This document shows, piece by piece, positions 20,152 through 35,626 of a stretch of 64,000 nt of DNA. The notes under the pieces were generated by a model that was not told the DNA's origin, made no database searches, and saw only the letters and a list, made by a program, of their open reading frames with translations. Every line of letters starts with the position of its first letter. Position 1 is the stretch's first letter. Source of the stretch: Nitrososphaera sp. (GTDB lineage Archaea > Thermoproteota > EX4484-205 > JAAOZO01); NCBI GenBank assembly GCA_039793485.1, contig JBAMLO010000053.1, positions 12,948 through 76,947 on the forward strand, given 5' to 3'. The translations under genes were made by a program, and so were the position numbers.

Positions 20152-20223
20152 GTGTTTTCCTAAAGGAGATAAAAATATATTTTTATGAGGCTTAAAACAA
20201 GGTAATGGAAAAGGTGATAAGAA

Positions 20224-20901
20224 CTGGTTCTCGCGGGGAAAGTCTTTAAAGTCGTTGAAAAGATTCCATTTGATGTTTTGGTTGAAAAACTAAGCAACTA
20301 TAGGCAAGAGGATCATATAGAAGAATTTAACCTTTCTTTATTAACAGAAGTAAAAGATTTAAATGTTAAAGGAGATAAGGTCTTTGGCGAACTTTACAAA
20401 GACGTTATGGTAAGGCTGTTTCAAAGGGGAACTCTTCAAGTTTCCTACAAAACGATAAAAGTTCCTTTCATGTTTAAAATTAAAAATAATTCTCTTTTCT
20501 TAGTCGTTGCAGAAAAGAAACAAGTTGCAAATTCAGTTGCTAATCTTTTTTCAAATATACTTTTTCTAACAATTGGAGGAATAGTTAACGCTGAGATTCC
20601 TCCGGAAGCTCTTGCGAGATACCAAAGACAAAATTCAAGCTCAACAAAAGTAATCTTCTTTGATAACCTAAACCTTCCAAATCTTGAAAAAATTTCCTTG
20701 TATGGTCCTTCGTTGGCTGATACTAACTTATACGCTGACTATATGCAAAGGGGAAAAATATGGTACACTGTGCTAACTTCAGCAAAAAATAATTACGTTG
20801 TTGGGATTACAAGAGACTCTGTTGTAACTATCTTCAATAAGGTTAGTGTTGAAGATTTGTTCGCGTTTGTGGAAGAAGAAGTCTTGCAATTGATATCTTA
20901 G
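20224..20901 (+). CDS. Conserved archaeal hypothetical protein (probable CTG start)
   Basis: ORF track gives 20278-20901. The frame is open back to CTG at 20224, bounded by TAA at 20218-20220 and preceded by an AAGGTGA SD-like motif. Confidence 0.75.
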   Translation: MVLAGKVFKVVEKIPFDVLVEKLSNYRQEDHIEEFNLSLLTEVKDLNVKGDKVFGELYKDVMVRLFQRGTLQVSYKTIKVPFMFKIKNNSLFLVVAEKKQVANSVANLFSNILFLTIGGIVNAEIPPEALARYQRQNSSSTKVIFFDNLNLPNLEKISLYGPSLADTNLYADYMQRGKIWYTVLTSAKNNYVVGITRDSVVTIFNKVSVEDLFAFVEEEVLQLIS

Positions 20902-20905
20902 TAGT

Positions 20906-21502
20906 TCAAAACAGTCTTCCCTGTTTCTCCCTTAATGCTCTTAGCTCTTCTTCACCTATTACTCCAAGTTCATAAGCTTTCGCAATAAGTTCTTCAAGGG
21001 AAAATAGGCTAAAAAACTTTACATTCATTTGAGTTAACTTGTTGCTTCCCCCTATTCCTTTGTCTAATATTACAGCATAAACGTAAGGTTGTCCTCCTTC
21101 AAGCATAACTCTTTTTACTATCTTATTTGCTTTGTTACCAGTTGCTATAACGTCATCAACTATCATAACTTTTGCTCCAGGTTCGAAGGAACCAAAGATC
21201 TCATTTTCCGAAGCTATTACAAGCGGTCTTTTAAGGAGCTGAGAAACGATCGTAGCAAGAGGAGTTCCAGTATAGCCTGCACCACACACGGCATTTACTT
21301 CTTTACGTTCCTCGAAGTCTTCTAAAATTAATTCTCCAATGGCTCTCAATAGTTCTGGGGTCTTCCATAATCTAGTTAGGTCTAAGTAGTATGGTGTAAC
21401 ATTTCCTTCGGAATCTTCAAACATTCCAAACCGTAACACGTCTGACCTTGCTATCTCTTTTAGGACTATGCCTCTTTTATTCATATACTCCAACCTCTCC
21501 AA
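20906..21502 (-). CDS. Orotate phosphoribosyltransferase-like protein (PyrE fold, catalytic loop missing)
   Basis: TPYYLDL, PRPP-binding VMIVDDVIATG, AVILDK; lacks the RKxxKxHG flexible loop. Confidence 0.75.
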   Translation of the reverse strand: MERLEYMNKRGIVLKEIARSDVLRFGMFEDSEGNVTPYYLDLTRLWKTPELLRAIGELILEDFEERKEVNAVCGAGYTGTPLATIVSQLLKRPLVIASENEIFGSFEPGAKVMIVDDVIATGNKANKIVKRVMLEGGQPYVYAVILDKGIGGSNKLTQMNVKFFSLFSLEELIAKAYELGVIGEEELRALREKQGRLF

Positions 21503-22301
21503 TTTTCTTTATGTCTATTCTAACGTCCGGTCTCTTTTTCTTCATCTCGTTTTCAAATCTTTTGAACTCTGTTCCGTGGAAAGGTATAACTAGCTTTGGC
21601 ATAACTCTTAGAGCTATTTCAACTCCAACTTTATAGTTTATTCCAGGATCTAGGCCTATGGGCACAAATGCAATGTCTGGCTTCTCATTAATGCCTATTT
21701 TTCTCATATCTTCGTTTGGCATAGAGTCGCTTGCATGATACACTTTTATTCCATTCTCAAAAACAATTAAGTAAGTAAGTGGAGATGTTGCGGAAGGATG
21801 GTTGCTCTCAAAAGCTCTAACCGTAATCATCTCATGGTTGAACTCATCCCCAGGCTTTAAAACCTTTAAATTTCCCTTTGGAACAATATGTTTAACAAGC
21901 ATAGCTGAAGCTGTATTACATACTACAAGTGGCCCTTCTTCAGCATTTTCAATTTCCCTTTCTTTTTCAATTTCTCTTTTTTCAGTGTCAGCTGTCTGTT
22001 CAGTTTGGTTTATTATCTCCATTATTTTACTTTCTTCAGAAAATGTCTCTTTTGGTTTTTTGTAACTCTTAATAATTCTAGAAACCGCGTTTTCATCTAA
22101 GTGACGCTTATGTTCGTGTGTTATAAGAATTAAATCTATGTTTACTAACTTACTTTCGTCAATTTCTTCCAGAGTTGGGTCAACTACTACTGTATACATT
22201 GGAGACCTCAAAATCACGCCCGAATACTTGTTTATTAGGGCGTACAGTAGCTGGTTTCTTTTCAATGGAATTTCTTGCATTCTCTTTTCTTTCAACCTCA
22301 C
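21477..22301 (-). CDS. Metallo-beta-lactamase fold protein (UlaG-like) with variant motif
   Basis: VVVDP, LITHEHKRH, NHP, YHASDS, DIAFVPIG, VIPFHG. Confidence 0.8.
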   Translation of the reverse strand: MRLKEKRMQEIPLKRNQLLYALINKYSGVILRSPMYTVVVDPTLEEIDESKLVNIDLILITHEHKRHLDENAVSRIIKSYKKPKETFSEESKIMEIINQTEQTADTEKREIEKEREIENAEEGPLVVCNTASAMLVKHIVPKGNLKVLKPGDEFNHEMITVRAFESNHPSATSPLTYLIVFENGIKVYHASDSMPNEDMRKIGINEKPDIAFVPIGLDPGINYKVGVEIALRVMPKLVIPFHGTEFKRFENEMKKKRPDVRIDIKKIGEVGVYE

Positions 22302-22352
22302 TGTTGACTGTAGTTAAGCTTAAAAACTTAAAGGTTTTGTCTTCCAGAGACA

Positions 22353-23381
22353 ATGCCCGAAGTCCCAATCCCCTACTCCGATACTAAAGTTTACCTTTCT
22401 TTTTCTTTGGAAGAAGTTGAGTTCATAAAGGAGACAAAATTAAGAGAAATTTTAAACGAAGCTAGTAATCATTTTTCTCAGTTTACTTCTGAAAATACCC
22501 TTTTGTTTGACGAACTGTTCCTGCTTTTAATGAACAAAACTCAAGGTTCCTCCTTTAACTCAAATTTTTTTGTTTTAAGTCCATATGAGAAAAAAAGAGC
22601 TCATTCTATTTCAGAGCTAACTCAAATACAAGGCTTGCGTCTAGACGCTTTAGATGAAAGAATAAAAGAACCCAAGGTAATCATTTTTTCTACTATTTTT
22701 TGGTTTAATGACATGCTGAGATTGTTTGGAAAATTTGCTTGGAACTTCGACAAATCTGGCTTTTTCTCTGTATTGGATGCTGTAATAAAAGATAACTTCA
22801 GTAGTAGTTCGCTAGCTAACTTCATTAGCTTCATGAATGACTTTTTCGAAGAAGTACTACAGCCAAGTACGATTGTTCTTCTAGGTGGTGGTGAGAGCTT
22901 AATTAAAGAGTTTACGTCTCCAAGAGATTTTAAGAATTGGCTGCAGACAACTAACAAGGACTCTTTTAAGACCGAAGGTACGAATTCTTTGATATTCTCT
23001 TTAGGTGGTTACCCTTTTGACCTTCTGCCGAGTTACTATTTAATAGGTGTAAATGAACTATTGTCACGATTTAAAGATAAGATCGTTGGAATTCTTGCAT
23101 TTTGGAACGGAATTCATGAGGAAATAACGCTTCTCTCAAATACGGAAAGCAACTTCGCCACCGATGAGTGGAATTGGCTAAAGCTTAACTTGTACTTTCT
23201 TAACAAAAGCAAAAAAGGCAATCTAAGCTCAAGATTTTTTACTTCAGTTCCTCAGGCAATTATGAATAAGTTATTGCCGTGCAGAACTTTCTTTTCTTCA
23301 AAACTTTTTCTTGATTCAATGAGAAGAGGTGCTGGATTCAAAATGAGAGCAAACGTTTACAAAGATGCATTACTCACTTAA
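22353..23381 (+). CDS. Hypothetical protein, remotely LarA (lactate racemase)-like
   Basis: N-terminus MPEVPIPYSDTKV and internal SLGGYPFDL recall LarA (IPYG...; SxGGYPxD). The ORF is real-looking (ATG, divergent promoter); the family call is weak. Confidence 0.4.
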   Translation: MPEVPIPYSDTKVYLSFSLEEVEFIKETKLREILNEASNHFSQFTSENTLLFDELFLLLMNKTQGSSFNSNFFVLSPYEKKRAHSISELTQIQGLRLDALDERIKEPKVIIFSTIFWFNDMLRLFGKFAWNFDKSGFFSVLDAVIKDNFSSSSLANFISFMNDFFEEVLQPSTIVLLGGGESLIKEFTSPRDFKNWLQTTNKDSFKTEGTNSLIFSLGGYPFDLLPSYYLIGVNELLSRFKDKIVGILAFWNGIHEEITLLSNTESNFATDEWNWLKLNLYFLNKSKKGNLSSRFFTSVPQAIMNKLLPCRTFFSSKLFLDSMRRGAGFKMRANVYKDALLT

Positions 23382-23408
23382 AATTTATGATGAAGTTTTC
23401 AAATTATT

Positions 23409-24497
23409 CTAAAATGTTAGTGGAATTATCGTAGCTGACAGCAAAAACATCGCTAATCCTATAATTGCTTTTATCTTTGTTGCCGTAGAAACTTCGCTCA
23501 CGTCATCCAGCGGCCCAGGATGGCCTTCAAACTTCCATGTAAGTGCCACAAATAATGCCATCAACCAAAATCCCATTAGAGCATAAACTACTAATGAAAT
23601 TATTGTTAAAATTTTATGTCCCTTTTCCCCGAATACTGCTCTTGCCATGTGCCCCCCATCCAGTTGAGCTGCTGGAAACATGTTTATGAAGGTAACTAAA
23701 AAAGCCAGCCATACCGGGAACCCAAGCAAGCCCATAATAAGAGTGTAGCCACTTCCAACTGGCTTGAGAAGACGAGCAACTACGTCAACTATGGGTTGCA
23801 TTTCAATGAAACCTGAAGTCTGAAGCAAAGATCGAAAATCTTCAATTCTAATCGGGACTGCTTCCTTAACCGCAAAAACAGTAATGGCAGTCGCGGATAT
23901 GAAACCGAAGAAGGGTCCAGAAAATCCAATATCAAATAGCTCGTCTCTGTTTCTAGGTATGCCCTCTTGAAATATTACAGCACCGAAAGTTGGTATTAGG
24001 CCAGGTATGCCGGGAATGAAAAATGGCCCTCTAGTGGGTATGCCGTATAAAGTTGCCATTACCTTGTGTCCAATTTCATGTAAGCCAAATATTAGTAAAA
24101 AAGCAAGAGTATATTCTGAAAAGTCAATTAAGAATGAGCTCTGTCTTCCAATTAGTTTGTTAAGAACTACTATTCCGTTATATCTCTGTAAGAAATCTAA
24201 GCTAACAGTTAAAATAGTTGCAAGTAAAAGTATCATCATCATCTTTGAATCGCTTCTTCTTTTAGGAGTTGTCGATTCTACTATGGAAATTGCAACTTTC
24301 CCATCCTTTCTTTTTCTCATAAAAGGCAGCCTGTTTTCTGTTTTTAGTTCATTGCAAAGCTTTATGAAGTTCTCTTTGTTTTCTTTTTTATCTTTAACTA
24401 TAAAGCTTATGTAATAAGGATTTAACTCAACATTTTCTATTTCAAAGTTGTATTTTCTCATTATAGTTTCAAGCTGGCTAACTACATTGCTTTCCAT
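23409..24497 (-). CDS. Site-2 protease (M50 family intramembrane metalloprotease)
   Basis: HEIGH zinc motif, GPFFG, NMFPAAQLDGGH; multiple TM segments. Confidence 0.93.
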   Translation of the reverse strand: MESNVVSQLETIMRKYNFEIENVELNPYYISFIVKDKKENKENFIKLCNELKTENRLPFMRKRKDGKVAISIVESTTPKRRSDSKMMMILLLATILTVSLDFLQRYNGIVVLNKLIGRQSSFLIDFSEYTLAFLLIFGLHEIGHKVMATLYGIPTRGPFFIPGIPGLIPTFGAVIFQEGIPRNRDELFDIGFSGPFFGFISATAITVFAVKEAVPIRIEDFRSLLQTSGFIEMQPIVDVVARLLKPVGSGYTLIMGLLGFPVWLAFLVTFINMFPAAQLDGGHMARAVFGEKGHKILTIISLVVYALMGFWLMALFVALTWKFEGHPGPLDDVSEVSTATKIKAIIGLAMFLLSATIIPLTF

Positions 24498-24620
24498 CCT
24501 TTTACTGTAACCTCGTAATTACTTTCCTGTTCTCAATGGTATTAAAGTTTTATCGCAAGCTTCACCCTACTTTTGAAAAAGTTTATTTTCTTGATAATCG
24601 GGAAGTGTGCTGACGAAAAG

Positions 24621-25100
24621 ATGGAGGTCTTATACGTTATCAGAAGAGCAAAGCTTGAAGATATGGAAAAGGTAATGGAAATTAACAAAAAAGAACTTCC
24701 TGAGAACTACTCCTCAGATTTCTTTTATGAAATGCTAAGCAACTATGGCGATTTCTTCTTCGTTGCTGAGCTAAAAGGGGACATAGTGGGTTATGTCATG
24801 AGCAGAGTGGAAACAAGTTTCTCCTTTTCTTCCTCTCCGCCATTCTTCCTAAGAGGTCATGTAGTAAGTCTAGCTGTAAGCTCCAGCTTTAGAAGAATGA
24901 AAATAGGATCTTCTCTAATGCAAACCACTCATGAGGAAATGAAAAAACACGGCATAAGAGAAGTTTATCTTGAAGTAAGAGTCGATAATGCTCCCGCGAT
25001 CTCTCTTTACAAAAAATTAGGTTATTCAATAGTTAAGAGAATACCCTACTACTATGCGGATGGCACTGACGCATACATGATGTCCATGAAACTTTTTTAG
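24621..25100 (+). CDS. ard1: N-terminal acetyltransferase Ard1/RimI family (GNAT)
   Basis: LPENY, GHVVSLAV...RRMKIG, YLEVRVDNAPAISLYKKLGY, YYADGTDAY; start placed at ATG 24621. Confidence 0.88.
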   Translation: MEVLYVIRRAKLEDMEKVMEINKKELPENYSSDFFYEMLSNYGDFFFVAELKGDIVGYVMSRVETSFSFSSSPPFFLRGHVVSLAVSSSFRRMKIGSSLMQTTHEEMKKHGIREVYLEVRVDNAPAISLYKKLGYSIVKRIPYYYADGTDAYMMSMKLF

Positions 25101-25290
25101 TCTTTTTTGTTGTGAAAGCATTAAAAAGTTTTTTAGGAACTTTACTCAAGCTAGGGTAGCGTTTGTTTTGTTTAACTTATTCACTAAATTATCGCAAACT
25201 AAGAGAGCATAAAAAGAGGAACCAGAAACAAAAATACGTTAACCTTGTTGGTTAAGTTATCTCGTTGCAAACAAGCAAGAAAAAGTAGTT

Positions 25291-25319
25291 AAAAATAAAA
25301 TTCTTGTTTGCGGCAAGAA
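25291..25319 (-). terminator. Hairpin plus T-tract downstream of alba
   Basis: TTCTTG/CAAGAA stem (25301-25319) followed on the minus strand by TTTTATTTTT. Confidence 0.45.
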
Positions 25320-25326
25320 CGTCTTC

Positions 25327-25638
25327 TTAGCTTTTAGTTACTGTGATCTCTATTGTTGATACGTTCCTTGGCTTAAGCCCTTCTTGCTTTGGTGGAAGCA
25401 GTTCAGTTCCTATCTTAATGTCCTTTATTTTTAAGGCTTCTTGTAGGAATCTCCCTTTTAATATTTCAACTACATCTACAGCCTTTGAAATAGCTCTTCC
25501 TCTCGCTCTAATCATTACTTCGCTGCTGTTGTTTATTTGCATTAGTGCTGCAACTGCGTATACGAGGGCCGACTTCTTTCCTACGAATATTACGTTAGAA
25601 GGTGCTCTTGTTGCTTCTGGTTTTGTAGTCTCAGACAT
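25327..25638 (-). CDS. albA: DNA/RNA-binding protein Alba
   Basis: IFVGKK, IRARGRAISKAVDV, RNVSTIEI. Confidence 0.96.
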   Translation of the reverse strand: MSETTKPEATRAPSNVIFVGKKSALVYAVAALMQINNSSEVMIRARGRAISKAVDVVEILKGRFLQEALKIKDIKIGTELLPPKQEGLKPRNVSTIEITVTKS

Positions 25639-25707
25639 GTTCCTTGTTACACCTCTTCAGCGCCTTTCTTCTTGTAGCACAAGGTTTTAAACTTTTCCCG
25701 CATAGCT

Positions 25708-26001
25708 TTAGCTTATAAGCTCCTTAATCGGTAAGTCTATATAGCTACCATCAGGAAAAGTTCTCCTGATTGAAATTGGTAACACTCCAAGATTTAACTC
25801 CTGCTCTGCTATCTTCAGAGCATCCCACTCTGTTTCTTCCACAGACACCAGAGGTGGCGCTCCTAAGTTTAGTTGTAACGCTCGTATTCCGATGATTCTT
25901 GCCCTTTCAAACCTAGTGAGCCTCTTAGGGAATTTTGAAAAATCTTCTTCAGATGTCAATATTGCTCCTACTACTTTAAGCTTGTTCTCTCCTATGCTCA
26001 A
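25708..26001 (-). CDS. rpo6: RNA polymerase subunit Rpo6 (K)
   Basis: LTRFERARIIGIRALQL..GAP and LPISIRR; TTG start overlapping the thermosome TGA. Confidence 0.95.
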   Translation of the reverse strand: MSIGENKLKVVGAILTSEEDFSKFPKRLTRFERARIIGIRALQLNLGAPPLVSVEETEWDALKIAEQELNLGVLPISIRRTFPDGSYIDLPIKELIS

Positions 26002-27608
26002 TATTCTTGTCCTTCTTTCTTTCCTTCAGAAGGCTTAAACTTTGCTGCTGCAGTTATTCTGTCTATTCTAAGCAAAGATACAGCAGTTTCTGTTGCTGCA
26101 GATAGGACGCGTTTCTTTATTTTAAGCGGGTCCCATATCCCAAGTTCTTTTGCGCTTACCGCTAGTTCTTCGCTTAAGGCTCCGACTCCATACTCTGTTT
26201 TTCCACTTGTATGCTCTGACCTCAGAGTACTTAGTACTTCTTCTGGGTCTTTCCCAGAGTTTCGAGCGATGTTGGCGGGGATTCTTTCTAGTGCCTCTGC
26301 AAAAGCCTCTATAGCATACTGAACTCTTCCTTCTTCTCTAGTTGAGCGCTCTCTTAGTTCTCTTGCAAGCTCTACTTCTATTGCGCCCGCTCCACTTACT
26401 ACTCTAGGATCTTCAAAAACAGCTTCCAGTGCTTTTATAGCTTTTTTAATTGATCTCTCAGCTTCACTAACTATTTTGTCATTGTCGCCTCTAACTATGA
26501 TGTTTACACTTTTGCTCTTTTTTCCGCTTACAACAAAAACCCATTTTTCATCGCCAAGCTTTCTTTCCTCAAAGAGCTCCGCAGTTCCTAAAAGTTCTGG
26601 GCTTAGCTCCTCTAAGTTTGTGACAATTTTTCCTCCAGTTGCAATTTCTAATTTTTCCATGTCTGATTTCTTTATTCTCCTCACTGCTGCAATTCCTTCT
26701 TTTGAAAGCAAGTATTGCACAAAATCGTCAATTCCTTTTTGACAGAGGACTACGTTAGCTCCCGTCGCTTTAATTTTATCAACCATTTCTCGCATCGTAT
26801 CTTGTTCCTTTCTTATGAAACTTCTCAGCATCGTTGGGTCTTTAAATTTCAATTTTTCATCGTATTCTGTCTTTCTAACCTCTAAACTTGTGTCTAGCAA
26901 TGCAATTTTTGGATTCTTTATTAGTTTAGGCATAGCTGCGTGCACTATTTCCTTATCTAAAGCAACCCCTTCTACAAAGAGAGTATCTCTAAGAGTACCG
27001 CCTGACTTTTTGTCAATTTTTATTCTGTCTGTGTCAAGTTTTCCTTCCTCTAGTACTCTTGTTACTGCTTCGACGGCAAGCTCCGCTAAATATTCTGCAT
27101 CTTCCACGCTTGTAAAGCTAGTTATCGCTGTTTTTGCTACATTCAGTAAACTCTTTCTTTCATTGTAGTTTATCTTAAAGGCATTCCTTTCTAAGGCTTC
27201 TTGGGCATACTTAAGTGCCTTTTCGTATCCTTCGCAAATAATAGATGGATGAATACCCTTCTGAATAAGCTCATTAGCCTTGTTCACAAGTTCTGTGGCC
27301 AATATTATAGTTGAAGTTACTCCGTCTCCAACGTCTTTGTTAACGGTCTTCGCTGTCTCAACTAGCACCTTTGCTGCAGGATGTTCTACTTCGACTTCTT
27401 CTAGTGCAGTTGCTCCGCTACTTGTTATTGTTACATCTCCAAATGTGTCCATGATCAGCTTGAACTTACCGTTTGGTCCAAGCATCGAAGAGACAGCTTC
27501 GTTTATGACTTCCGAAGCTCCTAAGATAAAACTTCTAACTTCGTCCTCTTCCCTCTCAGAAGAACCCTCCTTTAGTATTATAACCGGAATATAACTTTGC
27601 TCGCTCAT
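25998..27608 (-). CDS. Thermosome (group II chaperonin) subunit, divergent ATPase motifs
   Basis: PVIILKEG, LGP, HPAAK, GDGVTS, LDKEIVH.MP, CQKGIDD, AVRR, GAGAIE and ATETA..LLRID motifs. Confidence 0.95.
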   Translation of the reverse strand: MSEQSYIPVIILKEGSSEREEDEVRSFILGASEVINEAVSSMLGPNGKFKLIMDTFGDVTITSSGATALEEVEVEHPAAKVLVETAKTVNKDVGDGVTSTIILATELVNKANELIQKGIHPSIICEGYEKALKYAQEALERNAFKINYNERKSLLNVAKTAITSFTSVEDAEYLAELAVEAVTRVLEEGKLDTDRIKIDKKSGGTLRDTLFVEGVALDKEIVHAAMPKLIKNPKIALLDTSLEVRKTEYDEKLKFKDPTMLRSFIRKEQDTMREMVDKIKATGANVVLCQKGIDDFVQYLLSKEGIAAVRRIKKSDMEKLEIATGGKIVTNLEELSPELLGTAELFEERKLGDEKWVFVVSGKKSKSVNIIVRGDNDKIVSEAERSIKKAIKALEAVFEDPRVVSGAGAIEVELARELRERSTREEGRVQYAIEAFAEALERIPANIARNSGKDPEEVLSTLRSEHTSGKTEYGVGALSEELAVSAKELGIWDPLKIKKRVLSAATETAVSLLRIDRITAAAKFKPSEGKKEGQEY

Positions 27609-27795
27609 TTTCCATTTCTTGAGAGTTTTTACTAGTTTTATTAACTTTTCGCTTTTAACTGGTTACGATTCCTATAATTTTTCTTGTAAATGGTCTAAAA
27701 ACGCCTAAAAAGGACATCTTTGCGCAAATTTACTAAAATTTTAAAAATTTTTATTGTTAAAATTGGCTAATGTACTTTGGTTTGGAAGAGTGCAC

Positions 27796-28014
27796 CTAGG
27801 GTGAACTTCCAGAAAGATAATTTATTTGAACAAGCCTATCCATTACTTCCACAAATTCTCTTTCTATCCTGTATTTTTCTCTTTCAAACTCTTCTTTACT
27901 AATTTCTCCTCTTTTTAACTTATTTTCTAAAGTTTCGTACTCCTTTTCTAGTTCTTCCTTTCTTCTCTCTAACCTCTTTTTTTCTCCTTCCACACTTTCT
28001 GGAGTGAACATCAC
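27796..28014 (-). CDS. Small coiled-coil protein with SHOCT-like motif
   Basis: 72 aa, highly charged heptads, LKRGEISKEEFE motif; GGGGAAG SD-like sequence upstream. Confidence 0.7.
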   Translation of the reverse strand: MMFTPESVEGEKKRLERRKEELEKEYETLENKLKRGEISKEEFEREKYRIEREFVEVMDRLVQINYLSGSSP

Positions 28015-28263
28015 TTCTTCCCCCTGAGTCCTTTAGGTTGCTTTAATTAAAGACTCACGTTTATTTAACTTTTTAGAAGAATGGGGAGACTACCAACCTA
28101 AAGACTTTAAGAAACCAATTCACACGTCAAGCAACACTATAAGCTGACGACAATAAGTATGAGTACTTTGTTTGCAATTCTTAAGCAGAAAATTCTACTT
28201 CTTAAGAGTCTAAATGCTTTTTATTCAGCTGAAATATGATTTTTTAGATTCTGGATAAACAGC

Positions 28264-29034
28264 TCAGCTAGTTACCGCTTCTAGTGCTACTTTAATTGCT
28301 TCGAGTTCTCCTAAGGTCTTAAACTCATTAGTTATCCTATTTGCAAATACTGCTAGTACACTACCTGTTTTTAGCTTGTATAAGCTTCCAAGCACAAACA
28401 GTAAACTTGTTTCCATTTCAAAACTAAGGACGTTTGCCTTTGATAAATCTGAAATTAAATTTTCCATCCAACTTTGTTTGTACCCATTATAGCCTTCTCT
28501 CCCTTGCCCAGTATAAAATGAATCAGTTGATGCTACTATTCCTATGTGATATCTTGTTCCTAACTTCTTCGCAGAGTTAATCAGTTTCATTGTTGTTTCA
28601 AAGTCTGAAATAGCGGGATATTCTGAAATTATGTATTGTTTTGAAGTTCCTTCTAGTCTAACAGCACCTGTAGCAATTATTATGTCTCCCACGTTAATAT
28701 ACGGTTGGATTGCTCCAGTTGAGCCAACTCTTACTATTGTCTTCACACCAACTCTTGCAAGTTCTTCAACTACGATTGCGGTTGAAGGTGCCCCCATACC
28801 ACTGCATACTGCTCCAACTTCTTTGTTTTTATAAAAACCCTTTCCAACTACTAAACCTCTGTGCTTCGTTATGATTTTTCCGTTGTCCAATAAGCTAACT
28901 ATTTTCTCTACCCTCTCTGGATCGCCTGGAAGTAAAACAGCTTCCGGTAAATCTCCTTTCCTAACTCTAACGTGGTACTGATACCCTCCTTCTAACTCTG
29001 GCCTATCTGCTGATGAAATCTTTTCATCAACCAT
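28264..29034 (-). CDS. udp: Uridine phosphorylase / PNP-UDP family nucleoside phosphorylase
   Basis: LLPGDPERV, GMGAPS, RVGSTG, AVRLEGTS, DSFY.GQ, EME. Confidence 0.88.
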   Translation of the reverse strand: MVDEKISSADRPELEGGYQYHVRVRKGDLPEAVLLPGDPERVEKIVSLLDNGKIITKHRGLVVGKGFYKNKEVGAVCSGMGAPSTAIVVEELARVGVKTIVRVGSTGAIQPYINVGDIIIATGAVRLEGTSKQYIISEYPAISDFETTMKLINSAKKLGTRYHIGIVASTDSFYTGQGREGYNGYKQSWMENLISDLSKANVLSFEMETSLLFVLGSLYKLKTGSVLAVFANRITNEFKTLGELEAIKVALEAVTS

Positions 29035-29123
29035 ACATTAAAGCTTTCATGCTTCTTTTTTAATTTTTACCCATAGTTCTGATCAACAATAACTTTAAAA
29101 TCCGTCCTTTAGAAGCACTTGGT

Positions 29124-30215
29124 ATGGCCTTAATTAGAGCGCTAGCTATACATTTAGGCAATTTTTCGAACTATAGGTCTCTTAAAATAGAAGCTCTTAA
29201 GGAGAAAATTTCTGCTGTTAAGCATAAATTTAGAACAAATGTTTGGACCACTCGCATAGTTTTTCCTAAAGTAGTTCGCGATGAACTAGACCTAGAAAAA
29301 GTTATTGAAAGGTCAGAAGGACTTACTAAAGAGTTGGGTGCAGACTTTGCTGCTGTTCCGTTAGATTATAGTAGCCTTATGAAAATTCGTACCAAATTTG
29401 TAGAACTGTTTTCTGTTAGTAGTAGCCTCTTTTTTTCGCTTAACATTGGAGACATCACAGGAAACTTACCAATAAAGGAAACAAAAGATTCAGTGCAGTT
29501 ATTAAAAGAAATATTTGAAAGTGGCGGGGAAGAAGCGTGTACAAGGTTCGCGATTTCTTTTGGAGGTCAACCTGAAACCGCATATTTTCCAGACACGGTT
29601 GCTAAAAACTTTGGTTTTTCGTTGAGTCTAAGATATGTTAATGATGTGTTGAATAAACTAAGTAACAAAAAGGACTTACCAGAGATAGTTGAGTCCATAG
29701 CAAGACCAATTCAAAACGAAGCTCTAGAAGCTCAAAATTATGCGAACATGAAGTTTTTAGGAATTGACCTATCTTTGTCTCCATGGATGAAAGAAAGCGT
29801 TCTAAGGTTAATAAAGGAGGTCGAAGGAACAAGTAAGCTCTCTCCAGGATTCTACACTTCTATTTGGAAACTCAACAAAGCAATAGCGGATGCAAAAGGG
29901 ATAAAAAAGACAGGTTTTAATGAAGTGATGTTGCCTGTTGCTGAAGATTCTCTACTCAAAGAATACTTTGCAAACGAAAAAATGACGATTGCTGAACTGG
30001 TTGGTGCAATATCGGTTTGTGTGGCTGGGTTGGACATGGTAGCTGTTTCAGCTAACTTGAAGAGTGAAACAATAGAAAAACTAATTTTAGACTCAATTTC
30101 TATTTCGAAGGCAAGAAAGAAGAAAATTGGGATAAGGTTAATTCTAGCCAACAGCAAAGCTGGAGGAGAAATAAAGTTAGCTAGATTCGGCAAAGTTCCA
30201 GTAATAAAAGTCTAA
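29124..30215 (+). CDS. DUF711 (UPF0210) family protein
   Basis: GIDLSLSP, GFNEVMLPVAED and VCVAGLDMV motifs. Confidence 0.78.
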   Translation: MALIRALAIHLGNFSNYRSLKIEALKEKISAVKHKFRTNVWTTRIVFPKVVRDELDLEKVIERSEGLTKELGADFAAVPLDYSSLMKIRTKFVELFSVSSSLFFSLNIGDITGNLPIKETKDSVQLLKEIFESGGEEACTRFAISFGGQPETAYFPDTVAKNFGFSLSLRYVNDVLNKLSNKKDLPEIVESIARPIQNEALEAQNYANMKFLGIDLSLSPWMKESVLRLIKEVEGTSKLSPGFYTSIWKLNKAIADAKGIKKTGFNEVMLPVAEDSLLKEYFANEKMTIAELVGAISVCVAGLDMVAVSANLKSETIEKLILDSISISKARKKKIGIRLILANSKAGGEIKLARFGKVPVIKV

Positions 30216-30218
30216 AGC

Positions 30219-30236
30219 TCTCCTTGCGTAAGGAGA
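30219..30236 (+). terminator. Perfect 7-bp hairpin right after the DUF711 stop
   Basis: TCTCCTT-GCGT-AAGGAGA beginning 4 nt after the stop; no adjacent T-tract. Confidence 0.35.
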
Positions 30237-30747
30237 ATCTTGATTCTAAGGGTTGTTGTTCTACTTCCTCATTAAGTTTTTGTTTTTTCATTCTTAAACA
30301 GGAAGTAAAGCGATAATGGGCTTCAGAGGATGGTGAAGCCATGAACCTGTAAACCAGCAAATTATGTTTCTGAGCTACTTTTAATAGACATATGTAGCCC
30401 TTGGAATTCATAAGCCTAAAGCTCCTCTTAGTTCATTGAAGCTCTCATCAGCTTTTTCTCTTGTCGCAACGAACTCATTCCAAGCCTTCATAAGCTCTTC
30501 AAAGAGCTTCAAATTTTAGAAAGTTTCTTCTGAAAGTTTACTGCTGCATTAAGTTATCTGTTAATCCTCAACTCACACCTTGAACGTCGTACAATGCTTC
30601 CTTCGGGGCATTTATCTTCGAACCCTAGGGCACCTTCCAGTAGGAATAGTATAGCTGAGTAACTTAACTTTATTTCCTTTTTTAAACTGCCAACTACTGC
30701 GTAAAGTCTACATAAACACTGGAAGCTCCTCTGAGAAGAAGGTTAGT

Positions 30748-32262
30748 TCACGCTATTGTTTTCAACTCTAAGCTCCAACCTCTTGCCCTTTCTACAGCTT
30801 TCTTCCAGTTTTCGTAGAGACTTTTTGCTTTTAACATTTCTTCTCCTGATGGCAAAAATCTTTTTTCTTCTTTCCAAATCTCTTTAAGTTCTTCAAAGTC
30901 CTTCCACAAACCAACAGAAAGACCTGCTAACATAGAAGCGCCTAAAGCAGTTGTTTCCTTTATTTTAGGTCGTAGTATTGGTACTCCTAAAAGATTTGAC
31001 TGAAACTGCATCAGTAAATCACTTGCACTTGCACCTCCATCTACCTTAAGCTCCTTTATTTTAATTCCAGTTTCTGATTCCATAACTTCAATTACATCTC
31101 TTGTTTGATACGCAATGGATTCTAAAGTTGCCCTTGCAATATGTGCACTAGTTGTTCCTCTAGTGATCCCAATTATTGTTCCTCTGGCATACATATCCCA
31201 ATATGGAGCGCCCAAACCAACGAATGCAGGGACAAAATAAACACCACCGTTGTCTTTAACTTTGCTTGCAAGTTCGTTCACATCTTTTGATTCTTTTATT
31301 ATGCCTAACCCATCTCTTAGCCATTGGATTGCTGCACCAGTTATGAATATGCTTCCTTCTAGAGCATAGTTAACTTTCGACTTTGCAGCAAAGGCAATTG
31401 TTGAAACTAAACCTCTTTTCGAGAAAACAATTTTATCTCCAGTATTCAGCAATATAAAGTTCCCAGTTCCATAGGTACATTTAATCTCACCTTCTTCAAA
31501 GCCAGTTTGTCCGAATAGAGCCGCTTGTTGGTCTCCAACTAGGCTACCTATGAAAATTTCTTTTCCTAAAAACTCTTTACTCGTAAAACCATAATGATCT
31601 GATGACTTCTTTACTTCGGGGGCCATTTCGATGGGAATCTTCATTATTTCAAATAAATCTTCATCCCACTTAAGTCTAGCAATGTTAAACAACATTGTTC
31701 TAGAAGCGTTTGTAACATCAGTTGAGTGAACTTTCCCACCTGTTAACTTCCAGAGTAGCCAAGAGTCAATAGTTCCAAACAAAAGCTTATTTGAATTAAC
31801 AAGCTCTTTAGCCTTTTGAACGTTGTCTAAAATCCACTTAATTTTTGGACCTGAGAAATATGCGTCTGGAACTAACCCTGTTTTTGAAGTTATTGTTTGA
31901 CTATACCCTGCTTTCTTCAATTCTTCTATGTAGCTTGATGTTCTTCTGCATTGCCAAACTATTGCGTTATAAACTGGCGTACCTGAGTCCTTATTCCAAA
32001 CCACCACTGTTTCTCGTTGGTTTGTTATACCAATAGCGGCTATGTTTTTTATTTCCAGTTTAGAAAGCCTTATTGCTTCTCTAGCAGTTTCTAAAACAGA
32101 GTTAAATATTTCGAGTGGATCATGCTCTACGTACCCTGCTTTCGGATATATTTGCCTTATCTCTTTTTGTGCTACACTCACTATTTCTCCCTGAGTCGAA
32201 AAAACAATAGACCTGGTGCTTGTAGTGCCTTGGTCTATTGCTAAAATATAGTTGCTTGCCAT
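30748..32262 (-). CDS. glpK: Glycerol kinase
   Basis: DQGTTSTR, ITNQRET, VWQCRRT, YFSGPKI, GDQQAALFGQ, TYGTG, YALEG, PAFVGLGAPYW, VDGG. Confidence 0.96.
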   Translation of the reverse strand: MASNYILAIDQGTTSTRSIVFSTQGEIVSVAQKEIRQIYPKAGYVEHDPLEIFNSVLETAREAIRLSKLEIKNIAAIGITNQRETVVVWNKDSGTPVYNAIVWQCRRTSSYIEELKKAGYSQTITSKTGLVPDAYFSGPKIKWILDNVQKAKELVNSNKLLFGTIDSWLLWKLTGGKVHSTDVTNASRTMLFNIARLKWDEDLFEIMKIPIEMAPEVKKSSDHYGFTSKEFLGKEIFIGSLVGDQQAALFGQTGFEEGEIKCTYGTGNFILLNTGDKIVFSKRGLVSTIAFAAKSKVNYALEGSIFITGAAIQWLRDGLGIIKESKDVNELASKVKDNGGVYFVPAFVGLGAPYWDMYARGTIIGITRGTTSAHIARATLESIAYQTRDVIEVMESETGIKIKELKVDGGASASDLLMQFQSNLLGVPILRPKIKETTALGASMLAGLSVGLWKDFEELKEIWKEEKRFLPSGEEMLKAKSLYENWKKAVERARGWSLELKTIA

Positions 32263-32280
32263 ATCAGCAAAAGTCCTTTC

Positions 32281-32392
32281 AAGAAATATAAGTTTATCGT
32301 CCGGCTTGTTCTTAGCTTACAAAGAAGTTTAACAAGAAGGCCTACAGCTTTTACTTTGAGATACGTTGTTAAAGTTTGCAAAAATTTATAAT
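32281..32392. promoter_or_regulatory. Divergent BRE/TATA promoters of glpK and cdr (likely leaderless transcripts)
   Basis: Minus strand CGATAAA-CTTATATT about 23 nt before the glpK ATG; plus strand GCAAAAA-TTTATAAT (TATA 32385-32392) 22 nt before the cdr ATG. Confidence 0.5.
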
Positions 32393-32414
32393 GGCGTAAT
32401 AACTAATAAAGTTC

Positions 32415-33755
32415 ATGAAAGATTCACAGAAAGTGGTGGTAATAGGCGGAGGAGCAGCAGGGATGGCCTCTGCTGCTAGTGCTAGAAGAGTTAACAAGGA
32501 TGCAAAAATAACAGTTATAGAGGCATCAAAGTACGTTTCTTATGGTTCGTGCGGCATACCTTATTATCTAGGGAATCTTGTAGATGATGTTTCAAAACTA
32601 GTAACTTATACTCCTGAGCAATTTAAGAAAGAAAGAAATGTAGAAGTCCTAATAAATTCTTATGTTACAAAGATTGATGTTAGTTCAAAAACTGTAAAAT
32701 ACATCTCAGAAAAGGGTGAAGAAAAAGAAATTGAGTTTGATAGCTTAGTACTTGCTACAGGTGCTAAGCCATTTATACCAAAAATGGAAGGTTTAAACCT
32801 AAAAGGAATCTATACAGTTAGATTCCTAGAAGGTGCGGCAAAATTAAAAGAAGACCTTGCGTCTTCAAAAAAAGTTACAATAATAGGAGCAGGGTATATT
32901 GGATTAGAGCTGGCTGAAAACTTTAAAAAATTGAACAAAGAAGTTACAATACTGGAACTTCTGCCTCGTCCAATGCCAAACGTTGACGTGGAAATAGCTA
33001 GTATAATAGAGCAAGAGCTTAAGAAAAATGGTATAAAGCTTGAACTCAATAAAAAGGTAGTAGGCTTTGAAGGAAAGGATAGGGTAGAAAGAGTAATAAC
33101 TGAAGACTCTAAATATGAAACCGATGTTGTTGTTGTTGCAGTTGGAGTAAGGCCTAATGTTACGTTAGCTAAACAAATAGGCGTTGAGCTGGGGAAAAGT
33201 GGCGCCATAAAAACGAATTCTCGAATGGAAACAAACATTAAAGGAATATTTGCAGCTGGAGATAACTCTGAAGCTTACCATATTGTTCTTAATGCTCCAG
33301 TTTACATACCTTTAGCTCAAACAGCAAATAAGATGGGTTACGTTGCAGGTGCAAACGCTGCTGGAGGAAACGAAGAATTTCCGGGTATAGTTGGAAGCTC
33401 TATAACTAAGGTGTTCAACCTAGAAATAGGTAGAACTGGTATTGGCGAAGAAGAGGCCAAAAAGTTTGGCATCGAAACAAGAAGTGTTTTCATTAAGTCA
33501 AAGTCAAGGGCTGGTTATTATCCAGAAGGGAAAGAAATATGGATTAAACTGATCTTAGAAAAGTCCAGCAACGTAATTATTGGTGGACAAATTGTTGGCT
33601 ACGAGGGTGTTTGGGGAAGAATTGCAGCTTTAACTTTTGCAATTACAAATAAGTTTACTCCCAAGCAGGTTCTCTTTACAGATTTGCCTTATGCACCTCC
33701 ATTCAACCCAGTATGGGATCCACTAATAGTTGCTGCAAGAGTTGCTTTACGGTAA
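32415..33755 (+). CDS. cdr: CoA-disulfide reductase / NADH oxidase family flavoprotein
   Basis: GGGAAG, redox Cys in SYGSCGIPY, LATGA, GAGYIGLE, FAAGD, YAPPF. Confidence 0.88.
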   Translation: MKDSQKVVVIGGGAAGMASAASARRVNKDAKITVIEASKYVSYGSCGIPYYLGNLVDDVSKLVTYTPEQFKKERNVEVLINSYVTKIDVSSKTVKYISEKGEEKEIEFDSLVLATGAKPFIPKMEGLNLKGIYTVRFLEGAAKLKEDLASSKKVTIIGAGYIGLELAENFKKLNKEVTILELLPRPMPNVDVEIASIIEQELKKNGIKLELNKKVVGFEGKDRVERVITEDSKYETDVVVVAVGVRPNVTLAKQIGVELGKSGAIKTNSRMETNIKGIFAAGDNSEAYHIVLNAPVYIPLAQTANKMGYVAGANAAGGNEEFPGIVGSSITKVFNLEIGRTGIGEEEAKKFGIETRSVFIKSKSRAGYYPEGKEIWIKLILEKSSNVIIGGQIVGYEGVWGRIAALTFAITNKFTPKQVLFTDLPYAPPFNPVWDPLIVAARVALR

Positions 33756-33809
33756 GATCTTAGCGTTCTACGATAAAGTTAAAAAATGACTTTACTTTGC
33801 TTGTGAACA

Positions 33810-34970: not shown

Positions 34971-35044
34971 ACTTCAAGAATTAGTTCTAAAGGCTAAACT
35001 TATTAGATAAAATGGATGAAAAGGCTCTTGGATTTGTTTAACTC

Positions 35045-35626
35045 TTATTGCTCCAGCTCTTCAATTGATACACCATAACTTGAGAGGCAATCTTCGCAGA
35101 TATACTTTCCTTGGTAGAATACCAAGCGCTCGCTCCACTGGCCGCAATCTTCGCAGTACCCTTCATAATATTCTATCTTGTTTGCAAGAGTTAAGGGTGA
35201 GATCTTCGAGTAGTAAGTTTCAAGGATTGCTGGGACTGCTAGCGCAATATCTCTCTCAGTTATAATTCCCACTAGCCTGTCATTTTTCATGACGCCTAGT
35301 TTGTGAACCTTATGTAAACGCATAGCATCTAGCGCTCTCTCTAGGTCTTTGTTGTAATCTATTGTTATTAGGGGAGAGCTCATAACTTCTTCTACTGTTA
35401 CTTTTTTTGGATCAAGGCCCCTCGCTACAACTTTAACTACTATATCTCTTTCAGTTATCATGCCTACTGGGTTGTTCGAAGAATTAACTACGATTATGCT
35501 TCCTATTCCTCTAAGGTCCATCTCCTTAGCAGCTTCTTCGACAGTCTGGTTCTTGTTTACTGTATAAACTGGAAAAGTGGCGACGTCTCCTACCGTTATC
35601 TTGTTCGCTCCCGTTATTCTTCTCAT
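35045..35626 (-). CDS. CBS-pair protein with C-terminal zinc ribbon
   Basis: Two CBS repeats (GMITERDI, GIITERDI) plus CEDC...CEDC; architecture of Thermoplasma TA0289. Confidence 0.87.
   Translation of the reverse strand: MRRITGANKITVGDVATFPVYTVNKNQTVEEAAKEMDLRGIGSIIVVNSSNNPVGMITERDIVVKVVARGLDPKKVTVEEVMSSPLITIDYNKDLERALDAMRLHKVHKLGVMKNDRLVGIITERDIALAVPAILETYYSKISPLTLANKIEYYEGYCEDCGQWSERLVFYQGKYICEDCLSSYGVSIEELEQ

What the first reader, a model, noticed from the sequence alone, without database searches (positions are those of the whole stretch)
25998..27608. Thermosome subunit with catalytic ATPase residues replaced, translationally coupled to rpo6
Seen: TNDG is TSSG (S64); GDGTTT is GDGVTS; TGK of the nucleotide-sensing loop is TSF; SLHDA/AVDDA is SIKKA (K389, bases 26442-26444). 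There is no GGM-type tail. The TGA stop overlaps the TTG start of rpo6 (TTGA), and alba follows. Established: D60, K161 and D386 (Methanococcus maripaludis numbering) drive hydrolysis and nucleotide sensing in group II chaperonins, and eukaryotic CCT has low-ATP-usage subunits. Inference: a hydrolysis-deficient subunit of a hetero-oligomeric, asymmetric ring, or a chaperonin repurposed for RNA polymerase assembly.
Basis: partly seen in the sequence, partly recalled or inferred. Interest (0 to 1): 0.65.

Follow-up and report, generated by a model that had tools for sequence, protein, structure and literature searches.

The report
Catalytically dead thermosome subunit in Brockarchaeota
This archaeal gene encodes an intact, strongly conserved chaperonin (thermosome) subunit that has lost every residue needed to split ATP, most likely a non-catalytic member of a multi-subunit chaperonin, and its position next to the RNA polymerase gene rpo6 is an old gene order shared with normal thermosomes.

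Summary
The ORF at 25998..27608 (-) is a full-length group II chaperonin. Gapless alignments show D60->S64, GDGTTT->GDGVTS, K161->F165, D386->K389 and GGG->GAG. There is no Asp in a shifted register.

The changes are not chance or decay. All 12 members of its clade carry them, all 108 canonical relatives keep D/K/D, and dN/dS among close orthologs is about 0.06.

The organism is a low-GC Candidatus Brockarchaeota.

The rpo6 inference fails. Canonical thermosomes of Bathyarchaeia and Aigarchaeota are also followed directly by rpo6 (23 of 25 rpo6-linked copies in a metagenome sample are canonical). This gene is therefore the positional ortholog of a normal thermosome. Its Brockarchaeota-type relatives show graded loss of the ATP site.

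The TTGA overlap exists, but a second TTG with a GGAG Shine-Dalgarno motif 39 nt downstream is an equally good rpo6 start.

Brockarchaeota carry at least two further thermosome genes. One, next to S17e, is also catalytically degenerate. The other, 550 aa and next to EF-2, I could not read.

Best reading: a non-hydrolysing, possibly still nucleotide-binding subunit of a hetero-oligomeric thermosome. I found no published description of this. It is a new variant of a known kind and of moderate interest.

The parts
25998..27608 (-). Thermosome (group II chaperonin) subunit, 536 aa, with a degenerate ATP site
   Evidence: Pfam PF00118 at 528.8 bits. NCBIfam NF041083 at 589 bits, cut-off 400. PDB 1a6d_A E 7.5e-135. 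AlphaFold model pLDDT 81, TM 0.83-0.88 to solved group II chaperonin subunits. dN/dS 0.06.
27417..27419 (-). Codon of S64, in place of the Asp of TNDG (Mm-Cpn D60)
   Evidence: Alignments. S is invariant in clade A and D is invariant in 108 canonical relatives.
27312..27329 (-). GDGVTS (residues 94-99), a degenerate phosphate-binding loop (canonical GDGTTT). G94, D95 and G96 are kept.
27114..27116 (-). Codon of F165, in place of the nucleotide-sensing-loop Lys (Mm-Cpn K161)
26442..26444 (-). Codon of K389, in place of the catalytic Asp (Mm-Cpn D386). K388-K389 are invariant in clade A.
26385..26393 (-). G406-A407-G408, in place of the canonical GGG
25708..26001 (-). rpo6/rpoK (RNA polymerase subunit K). 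The longest ORF starts at TTG 26001, which overlaps the thermosome stop. An alternative start is TTG 25959, preceded by GGAG at 25968..25965.
   Evidence: Pfam Rpb6. NCBIfam NF002207 at 91 bits. Sequence and comparisons.
25327..25638 (-). Alba chromatin/RNA-binding protein, 69 nt downstream of rpo6. It is a neighbour in Brockarchaeota-type loci but not in the canonical loci.
   Evidence: Pfam Alba. Present in L001, L009 and L016. Absent in L003 and L011-L013.
27796..28014 (-). Conserved 72-aa coiled-coil ORF (motif IEREFVEVMDRL), 187 nt upstream of the thermosome gene on the same strand
   Evidence: Conserved directly upstream in all clade A, clade B and P0300-type loci. Only a weak, sub-threshold Prefoldin_2 hit and no NCBIfam hit. 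It also occurs 1-3 kb from the rpo6-linked thermosomes in L042 and L043 (canonical) and L061 (only the sensing-loop Lys lost), so it is a regional neighbour and not specific to the dead copy.
24573..25100 (+). GNAT acetyltransferase, a syntenic neighbour
   Evidence: Pfam. Same position in L001, L003, L009 and L016.
23409..24497 (-). M50 site-2 protease, a syntenic neighbour
   Evidence: Pfam. Same position in L001, L003 and L009.

Best explanation
The gene encodes a structurally complete thermosome subunit that has lost ATP hydrolysis and gamma-phosphate sensing. It keeps the parts needed to fold, to assemble into a ring and to bind substrate, and possibly to bind nucleotide.

It descends from the ordinary rpo6-adjacent thermosome gene of TACK archaea. 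In the Brockarchaeota lineage that copy lost its ATP-site residues in steps. Across the lineages the states are:
1. Sensing-loop Lys lost.
2. First Thr of the phosphate loop also changed to Val.
3. D386 also changed to Asn.
4. In the window's clade, D60 changed to Ser and D386 changed to Lys.

I infer that it works as a non-catalytic subunit in a hetero-oligomeric thermosome ring. Another paralog would supply the ATP-driven lid closure. That would make a hard-wired version of the uneven ATP use known in eukaryotic CCT.

Shown:
- the residue replacements;
- their conservation;
- purifying selection;
- the intact fold;
- positional orthology to canonical thermosomes;
- more than one thermosome paralog in Brockarchaeota genomes.

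Inferred:
- loss of hydrolysis, from mutational knowledge of D60/D386 in Mm-Cpn and of the equivalent Asp residues in GroEL;
- retention of nucleotide binding;
- co-assembly with a catalytically active partner.
For: - Replacements at all three key positions plus the P-loop and GGG, in gapless alignments.
- They are invariant or near-invariant in 12 of 12 clade members at 56-96% identity. All 108 canonical relatives keep D/K/D.
- dN/dS is 0.057-0.063 at dS 0.3-0.9 among the window, L006 and L007, so the gene is functional.
- The fold is intact: pLDDT 81, TM 0.83-0.88 to Mm-Cpn, thermosome, TF55 and CCT subunits. The lid region aligns without gaps.
- GP of GPxG, G94-D95-G96, T98, G406/G408, and the N-terminal P8..E14-G15 and C-terminal LLRID segments are kept.
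- Within the clade the apical domain is 73% identical against 46-51% for the equatorial and intermediate (ATPase) domains. In canonical pairs the figures are 77% against 60-71%. Constraint has shifted from the ATPase to the substrate/lid end.
- The branch is accelerated: distance to canonical copies is 0.96, against 0.26 among canonical copies.
- Positional orthology to canonical rpo6-linked thermosomes, with graded decay (L061, clade B, P0300 type, clade A).
- Further paralogs exist in Brockarchaeota. The S17e-adjacent P0157/P0321 family is in MAGs QC4_43 and DRTY-6.80. The rpo6-linked P0300 type is in the same DRTY-6.80 MAG (accessions MBO3797455 and MBO3797924; contig 266,602 bp). In at least 10 other MAGs the accession numbers pair up. 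A third COG0459 gene of 550 aa lies next to EF-2 on the same DRTY-6.80 scaffold.
- PDB entries use Mm-Cpn D386A to trap the ATP-bound pre-hydrolysis state (3izh and 3j02).
Against: - No catalytically canonical thermosome from a Brockarchaeota genome was seen in sequence. The only candidate, the EF-2-adjacent 550-aa gene, is known to me only as a COG0459 line in a supplementary table.
- Both paralog families I could read (rpo6-linked and S17e-linked) are degenerate.
- Co-occurrence of paralogs in one genome is shown for the 47% GC Brockarchaeota group, not directly for the window's low-GC group.
- There is no expression, interaction or biochemical evidence.
- Loss of the sensing-loop Lys alone does not abolish ATPase. 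Group III chaperonins lack that loop (PMC5220055).
- The invariant Lys at position 389 suggests a gained role that I cannot specify.
Confidence: 0.6

Rival explanations
1. It forms its own homo-oligomeric ring, or a smaller assembly, that acts as an ATP-independent holdase or anti-aggregation chaperone, separate from the ATP-driven thermosome.
For: The apical domain and lid are the best conserved parts. Ring-forming termini are kept. No active partner was seen in sequence. Several independent lineages carry similar dead paralogs, some also with Asp->Lys at the catalytic position (P0436, P0164 and the C-terminal half of P0146).
Against: Lid closure in group II chaperonins needs hydrolysis, and D386A Mm-Cpn is trapped before hydrolysis (PDB titles). 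A ring made only of such subunits would be locked in one state. Nothing in the sequence separates a homo-oligomer from a hetero-oligomer.
Confidence: 0.2
2. The chaperonin fold has been repurposed for a job tied to its neighbours: RNA polymerase assembly (rpo6) or RNA/chromatin handling (Alba).
For: Tight same-strand linkage to rpo6, with at most 39 nt between the genes. The linkage is conserved in all Brockarchaeota-type loci, and Alba follows in most of them.
Against: The thermosome-rpo6 pair is equally present, and sometimes overlapping, for canonical thermosomes of Bathyarchaeia and Aigarchaeota: 23 of 25 rpo6-linked copies in the metagenome sample are D/K/D. The linkage therefore predates the loss of the ATP site and is independent of it. 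Alba has a 69-nt spacer with a TATA-like TTTAAAA and is missing in L003.
Confidence: 0.07
3. It is still an ATPase that uses other residues, for example K388/K389 or a neighbouring acidic residue, in a rewired active site.
For: The Mg-binding D95, the GP dipeptide, T98 and GxG are kept. K389 is invariant, which suggests function rather than mere loss. Half of the clade has an Arg one position after the lost sensing Lys.
Against: Both general-base and water-positioning Asp residues are gone together with the sensing Lys and the first P-loop Thr. No acidic residue is available in a shifted register. The sister lineages show different replacements (D386->N; S17e family D386->H or S), as expected for relaxed rather than rewired chemistry. 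The window protein itself has no Arg after F165.
Confidence: 0.1
4. It is a decaying gene on its way to becoming a pseudogene.
For: Accelerated divergence. It fails the TIGR02339 cut-off, 575 against 671 bits.
Against: Intact 536-codon frame in every ortholog. dN/dS is 0.06. 111 of the 278 columns that are at least 97% conserved in the canonical set are retained and invariant in the clade. The gene is conserved across lineages with GC from 34% to 55%.
Confidence: 0.01

Closest known systems
Canonical archaeal thermosome subunits (for example T. acidophilum alpha/beta 1a6d, M. maripaludis Mm-Cpn, Sulfolobus TF55)
   Same: Same family, same length and the same three-domain fold with a built-in lid. 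It is the positional ortholog of the rpo6-adjacent thermosome gene of Bathyarchaeia and Aigarchaeota.
   Different: D60, K161 and D386 are replaced by S, F and K. The P-loop is GDGVTS and GGG is GAG. Identity to canonical orthologs is about 45-50%, against 67-78% among those orthologs. It scores below the TIGR02339 cut-off.
Low-ATP-usage subunits of eukaryotic CCT/TRiC
   Same: The idea is the same: a hetero-oligomeric group II ring in which only some subunits drive the cycle. Structural similarity is TM 0.83-0.85 to CCT subunits.
   Different: From my own knowledge, CCT subunits all keep GDGTT[ST] and the catalytic Asp residues. Their asymmetry lies in affinity, not in loss of chemistry. Here the chemistry itself is removed. 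The gene is not related to any particular CCT subunit (all CCT models score far below cut-off). Membership of a hetero-oligomer is inferred, not shown.
Vertebrate chaperonin-like proteins MKKS/BBS6, BBS10, BBS12 and CCT8L
   Same: They are divergent group II paralogs with degenerate hydrolysis motifs but a retained Gly-Pro nucleotide-binding dipeptide (PMC2846930). The pattern here is analogous.
   Different: Those are eukaryotic and derived from CCT, carry insertions, and are thought not to enter the ring. This protein has no insertions and keeps the ring-contact termini.
Other degenerate thermosome paralogs found here (S17e-adjacent TK[TS]G family of Brockarchaeota and Bathyarchaeota; P0164, P0222, P0331)
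   Same: They have lost D60, K161 and D386. Asp->Lys at the catalytic position recurs, as in P0436 ERAMKKAL.
   Different: They are separate paralog lineages, about 40% identical to the query, in another genomic context (S17e), and they keep the P-loop as GDGTTS.
Multi-subunit thermosomes of Methanosarcina acetivorans (five group II genes)
   Same: A prokaryote with several group II paralogs (PMC5220055).
   Different: Whether those subunits have dead ATP sites was not checked here. My recollection that two of them are divergent (Maeder et al. 2005) is unverified. It is a different phylum with independent duplications.
Group III (bacterial thermosome-like) chaperonins
   Same: They lack the nucleotide-sensing loop Lys (PMC5220055).
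   Different: They are bacterial, still ATP-driven and keep the catalytic Asp residues. This protein is a group II member by sequence and fold.

Membership tests
Group II chaperonin / thermosome (Cpn60_TCP1) | Significant match to the family profile over the full length | tested here: met
   PF00118 at 528.8 bits, residues 35-521 against profile positions 1-488 of 490. NF041083 at 589 bits (cut-off 400) and NF041082 at 586 bits (cut-off 450).
Group II chaperonin / thermosome (Cpn60_TCP1) | Stricter archaeal thermosome subfamily model TIGR02339 (cut-off 671.1 bits) | tested here: not met
   575.4 bits, below the cut-off. Canonical P0016 scores 820. All the Brockarchaeota paralogs tested fall below it, at 529-616 bits.
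Group II chaperonin / thermosome (Cpn60_TCP1) | Three-domain fold with a built-in helical-protrusion lid | tested here: met
   AlphaFold pLDDT 81, pTM 0.78, helix 258-282. Foldseek TM 0.83-0.88 to 3rus, 1a6d, 4xcd and 3ko1. Gapless alignment through the lid region to 1a6d_A.
Group II chaperonin / thermosome (Cpn60_TCP1) | Catalytic and sensing residues D60, K161 and D386, and the GDGTTT loop | tested here: not met
   S64, F165, K389 and GDGVTS.
Group II chaperonin / thermosome (Cpn60_TCP1) | Assembles into double 8- or 9-membered rings; ATP-dependent folding | not testable with these tools
   Only indirect: the N-terminal P-V-I-I-L-K-E-G and C-terminal LLRID..I.A segments are conserved.
CCT-like asymmetric hetero-oligomer (working analogy, not a family assignment) | Several distinct subunit genes in one genome | tested here: met
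   Met for the phylum. DRTY-6.80 carries the rpo6-linked P0300 type, the S17e-linked P0551 and a third COG0459 gene. Not shown directly for the window's own genome: there is only one copy in the 64 kb.
CCT-like asymmetric hetero-oligomer (working analogy, not a family assignment) | At least one catalytically competent subunit in the same genome | tested here: inconclusive
   The candidate 550-aa EF-2-adjacent gene was seen only as an annotation line. Searches with P0157 and P0395, context look-ups of P0147, P0033, P0332 and P0337, and the contig-length check did not find it.
CCT-like asymmetric hetero-oligomer (working analogy, not a family assignment) | Subunits co-assemble in a fixed arrangement | not testable with these tools
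   No proteomic or structural data.
   rpo6 lies directly downstream of canonical thermosomes in L011, L012, L013, L019 and 23 metagenome loci.

The most novel reading that the evidence does not exclude
Brockarchaeota build a prokaryotic chaperonin with hard-wired ATPase asymmetry. Two of their three thermosome subunit types, the rpo6-linked one in this window and the S17e-linked one, are obligate non-hydrolysing subunits, and a single competent type powers the ring. This would be an independent, more extreme archaeal counterpart of the CCT power-stroke gradient.

The invariant Lys that replaces the catalytic Asp recurs in unrelated dead paralogs. It may act as a built-in mimic that holds the site in one nucleotide state.

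The still more radical version is that the third gene is degenerate too and the whole chaperonin works without ATP hydrolysis. My data do not exclude this, but I think it unlikely (about 0.05).
Probability: 0.4. Interest if true: 0.75.

Novelty: new variant of a known kind. Interest (0 to 1): 0.55.

Why it matters
Group II chaperonins are usually described as rings in which every subunit can hydrolyse ATP. The uneven ATP use of eukaryotic CCT is seen as a eukaryotic refinement.

A naturally occurring archaeal subunit with all hydrolysis residues removed, kept under strong selection, would show that the split between power subunits and passenger subunits arose in archaea as well. The stepwise intermediates in sister lineages and a second dead paralog family add to that case.

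It also offers a simple system of about three genes for studying how many active sites a ring needs.

There is a practical point for annotation. These genes are currently labelled plain 'thermosome subunit alpha/beta', and the thermosome-rpo6 gene pair should not be read as a functional link.

Tried and rejected
1. Finding the catalytically competent Brockarchaeota partner failed.
   - Context look-ups of P0147, P0033, P0332 and P0337 gave other organisms or other contexts.
   - Homolog searches seeded with P0157 and P0395 listed no canonical protein named Brockarchaeota.
   - Using amino-acid composition as a proxy for genome GC did not discriminate.
   - A search for EF-2 next to a thermosome in the fetched loci gave only L099, in a different arrangement.

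2. The window holds no second Cpn60_TCP1 gene.

3. Transcript evidence for co-transcription: there are no RNA runs.

4. The bacterial promoter/terminator scan is uninformative for an archaeon.

5. The upstream 72-aa ORF as a dedicated co-factor: rejected as specific to the dead copy, because homologs lie 1-3 kb from the rpo6-linked thermosomes in L042 and L043 (canonical) and L061 (only the sensing-loop Lys lost). The Prefoldin_2 hit is below threshold and typical of coiled coils.

6. Literature searches for ATPase-dead thermosome paralogs in TACK archaea found nothing relevant.

7. The pseudogene reading is rejected by dN/dS.

Full report
**What is there.** The ORF at 25998..27608 on the minus strand encodes 536 residues. 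It matches Pfam Cpn60_TCP1 over its whole length at 528.8 bits. It aligns to solved thermosome chains from residue 6 to 530; the best is T. acidophilum alpha, 1a6d_A, E 7.5e-135.

| Canonical | Window protein |
|---|---|
| TNDG | TSSG (S64) |
| GDGTTT | GDGVTS (94-99) |
| sensing-loop Lys | F165 |
| catalytic Asp of ...HDA... | K389 (codon 26444..26442) |
| GGG | GAG (406-408) |

No Asp or Lys sits one or two positions away that could take over. The acidic residues nearby (D58, E382, E384, E399, D400) all have counterparts in canonical sequences. Mapping to Mm-Cpn numbers D60, K161 and D386 uses my recollection of that sequence; the columns themselves are tool-verified. An AlphaFold model built on 17 relatives has mean pLDDT 81 and pTM 0.78. 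It superposes on Mm-Cpn, thermosome, TF55 and CCT subunits with TM 0.83-0.88. The three-domain fold and the lid helix are therefore intact.

**More than chance, and not decay.** A search of 5.8 billion proteins gave a small clade of 11 clusters at 56-96% identity to the query (P0001-P0011). After a gap come canonical thermosomes at 50% identity or less. In the 121-sequence alignment:
- all 12 clade members have Ser at position 64, Lys-Lys at 388-389, Val at 97 and no Lys at 165;
- all 108 canonical sequences have Asp, Lys and Asp at the three key columns.

Codon comparisons among the window and its 91-96% identical orthologs give dN/dS of 0.057-0.063 at dS 0.3-0.9. The gene is under strong purifying selection.

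Divergence from canonical copies is about four times the divergence among canonical copies: Kimura distance 0.96 against 0.26. It is also uneven. Within the clade the apical (substrate and lid) domain is 73% identical, while the equatorial and intermediate (ATPase) parts are 46-51%. In canonical pairs the domains are more even, 77% against 60-71%.

The elements that bind the adenosine and the first phosphates, and the termini that knit subunits into a ring, are kept. These are:
- the GP dipeptide;
- G94-D95-G96 and T98;
- G406 and G408;
- P8..E14-G15 at the N-terminus;
- LLRID at the C-terminus.

**Organism.** The closest genomic matches are MAGs SJ3.Bin70 (96%), DRTY7.bin_36 and Candidatus Brockarchaeota DRTY-1.bins.18 (91%). 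Cluster members are named Candidatus Brockarchaeota. The window's 36% GC fits the low-GC Brockarchaeota group of De Anda et al. 2021 (PMC8065059, Table 1). The DNA occurs in hot-spring metagenomes.

**The rpo6 linkage is old gene order.** The Rpb6/RpoK ORF (25708..26001) and Alba (25327..25638) do follow on the same strand. The same order recurs in the more distant clade members (L001-L005), in a sister group here called clade B (L009/L010) and in a third Brockarchaeota type (P0300, L016). That order is small ORF, thermosome, rpo6, usually Alba, GNAT, and (except at L016) M50 protease.

Fully canonical thermosomes have rpo6 directly downstream as well:
- Bathyarchaeia P0046 (L011);
- P0064 (L013), where the two genes overlap by 14 nt;
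- Aigarchaeota P0091 (L012).

In 80 metagenome loci retrieved with a profile of the clade, 25 of 85 thermosome ORFs are directly followed by rpo6, and 23 of those 25 are D/K/D. The window gene is thus the positional ortholog of an ordinary thermosome gene. The neighbourhood says nothing specific about its altered function.

The TTGA overlap is real, but the true rpo6 start is open:
- TTG 25959 is preceded by GGAG at the right distance. That 18-nt stretch is identical in the window and L006-L008. It gives an N-terminus of the length seen in L003.
- The longer frame stays open in the close relatives and carries one in-frame indel, which weakly favours the upstream start.

Either way the genes are at most 39 nt apart with no T-run between them. 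Co-transcription is likely but untested, because there are no RNA runs.

**Graded loss.** The rpo6-linked orthologs form a series:

| Lineage | State of the ATP site |
|---|---|
| Bathyarchaeia, Aigarchaeota | Canonical |
| L061 | Only the sensing Lys lost (TAISGSL) |
| Clade B | GDGVVS, Lys->Tyr, GAG; both Asp kept |
| P0300 type (47% GC Brockarchaeota) | GDGVTS, no Lys, D386->Asn |
| Window's clade | D60->Ser and D386->Lys |

This is the pattern expected if hydrolysis by this subunit became dispensable early, after which the catalytic residues drifted or were recruited.

**Other paralogs.** A profile search of 1.84 billion cluster representatives showed that thermosome-like proteins lacking D60, K161 and/or D386 are common among the nearest clusters. 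Two of these clusters carry Brockarchaeota names.
- One is the P0300 type already described.
- The other, the P0157/P0321 family (530-538 aa), has TKTG, GDGTTS, Lys->Phe and ERE[LF]KH[SA]. It lies next to ribosomal protein S17e, not rpo6.
- A related TKSG family (P0395, named Brockarchaeota; P0436 from a Bathyarchaeota MAG, with ERAMKKAL) is degenerate too.

Several links tie these paralogs to single genomes:
- Contig lengths tie P0157 to MAG QC4_43 (135,049 bp).
- They tie P0551 to DRTY-6.80 scaffold NODE_1 (266,602 bp).
- The accessions MBO3797455 (S17e type) and MBO3797924 (rpo6 type) lie 469 apart in the same DRTY-6.80 assembly.
- The same pairing of accession numbers recurs in at least ten other MAGs.

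Supplementary Data 9 of De Anda et al. lists two COG0459 genes on that DRTY-6.80 scaffold. One is the 532-aa gene next to S17E. The other is a 550-aa gene next to EF-2. Brockarchaeota therefore have at least three thermosome genes, and two of them are catalytically degenerate. I could not obtain the sequence of the third, which is the obvious candidate for the active subunit. Co-occurrence is shown for the 47% GC group, not directly for the window's genome; the 64 kb holds one copy.

**How it most likely works.** From established work on Mm-Cpn and GroEL, removing D386 or its equivalent stops hydrolysis but not ATP binding. PDB entries 3izh and 3j02 use D386A to trap the pre-hydrolysis state. 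With D60, D386, K161 and the first P-loop Thr all gone, this subunit should not hydrolyse ATP or sense the gamma-phosphate. It may still bind nucleotide.

The fold, the apical domain and the ring-contact segments are conserved, and other paralogs exist. The best-supported reading is therefore a non-catalytic subunit of a hetero-oligomeric thermosome whose cycle is driven by another subunit (confidence about 0.6).

The main rival is a separate ATP-independent holdase ring (about 0.2). A rewired ATPase (about 0.1) and an RNA polymerase- or RNA-related role (about 0.07) are less likely. A pseudogene is excluded.

The invariant Lys at 389 also arose independently in P0436, P0164 and the second half of P0146. 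This hints at a positive role, for example pairing with D95 in place of Mg and gamma-phosphate. That is speculation.

**Comparison with what is known.** By family profile and fold it is a thermosome. It passes NCBI's thermosome_beta and thermosome_alpha models but falls below the stricter TIGR02339 cut-off, 575 against 671 bits; a canonical ortholog scores 820.
- It works like the low-ATP-usage subunits of CCT in concept. Those, to my knowledge, keep all catalytic residues.
- In its pattern of loss (hydrolysis motif gone, Gly-Pro kept) it resembles the vertebrate chaperonin-like proteins MKKS, BBS10 and BBS12 (PMC2846930). Those are unrelated CCT derivatives with insertions and are thought not to enter rings.
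- Group III chaperonins show that losing the sensing loop alone is compatible with activity (PMC5220055).

Searches of the held literature found no description of ATPase-dead thermosome paralogs in TACK archaea. Public annotation calls these genes simply thermosome subunit alpha or beta.

**Verdict.** The 'hydrolysis-deficient subunit' reading is supported but not proven. The RNA polymerase reading is not supported. It is a new variant of a known kind and of moderate interest. The decisive missing item is the full paralog inventory of one complete Brockarchaeota genome, followed by biochemistry.

Noticed in passing
window 1369..5328 (-): A 1319-aa SMC-type ATPase with an Intein_splicing domain (residues 94-197) inserted near the N-terminal P-loop region.
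   Followed up: no
window 27796..28014 (-); L001 5719-5928; L003 5633-5908; L009 4709-4939; L016 4609-4839: A small conserved coiled-coil protein (motif PPGVE...GEIS.EE[YF]...IEREFVEVMDRL) with no family assignment. It always lies directly upstream of the degenerate rpo6-linked thermosome. Homologs also lie 1-3 kb from the rpo6-linked thermosome genes in L042, L043 and L061.
   Followed up: partly
P0157/P0321/P0395 families; loci L014, L015: A second, independent family of thermosome paralogs with dead ATP sites (TK[TS]G, no sensing Lys, D386->H/S/K). It lies next to ribosomal protein S17e in Brockarchaeota, with relatives in Bathyarchaeota MAGs such as P0436.
   Followed up: partly
P0145 (1057 aa, named Candidatus Freyarchaeota) and P0146 (1047 aa): Single polypeptides made of two tandem thermosome modules. 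The second module of P0145 and both modules of P0146 lack the catalytic Asp, and one has Asp->Lys. They could be natural fused hetero-dimers of an active and an inactive subunit, or gene-calling fusions.
   Followed up: no
Representative clusters P0149-P0292: Among the 150 cluster representatives nearest to the clade profile, a large share lack D60, D386 and/or K161. Degenerate thermosome-like paralogs seem widespread in metagenomic archaea. Some alignments of distant members may be imprecise.
   Followed up: partly
L022/L023, L046, L050, L092, L101: Tandem pairs of thermosome genes, head to tail and less than 50 nt apart, in other archaeal contigs.
   Followed up: no
window 14240..17095 (+) and 43915..46563 (-): Two Lhr-type large helicase paralogs (DEAD, Helicase_C, WH_Lhr, DEAD_assoc) within 30 kb.
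   Followed up: no
window 38040..40256 (-) and 22353..23381 (+): Long ORFs of 738 aa and 342 aa with no Pfam match. The 342-aa ORF sits in the position of an unannotated 365-375-aa gene in the syntenic loci.
   Followed up: no
window 1..64000: No tRNA gene, no Rfam family at gathering score and no tandem repeats in 64 kb.
   Followed up: yes
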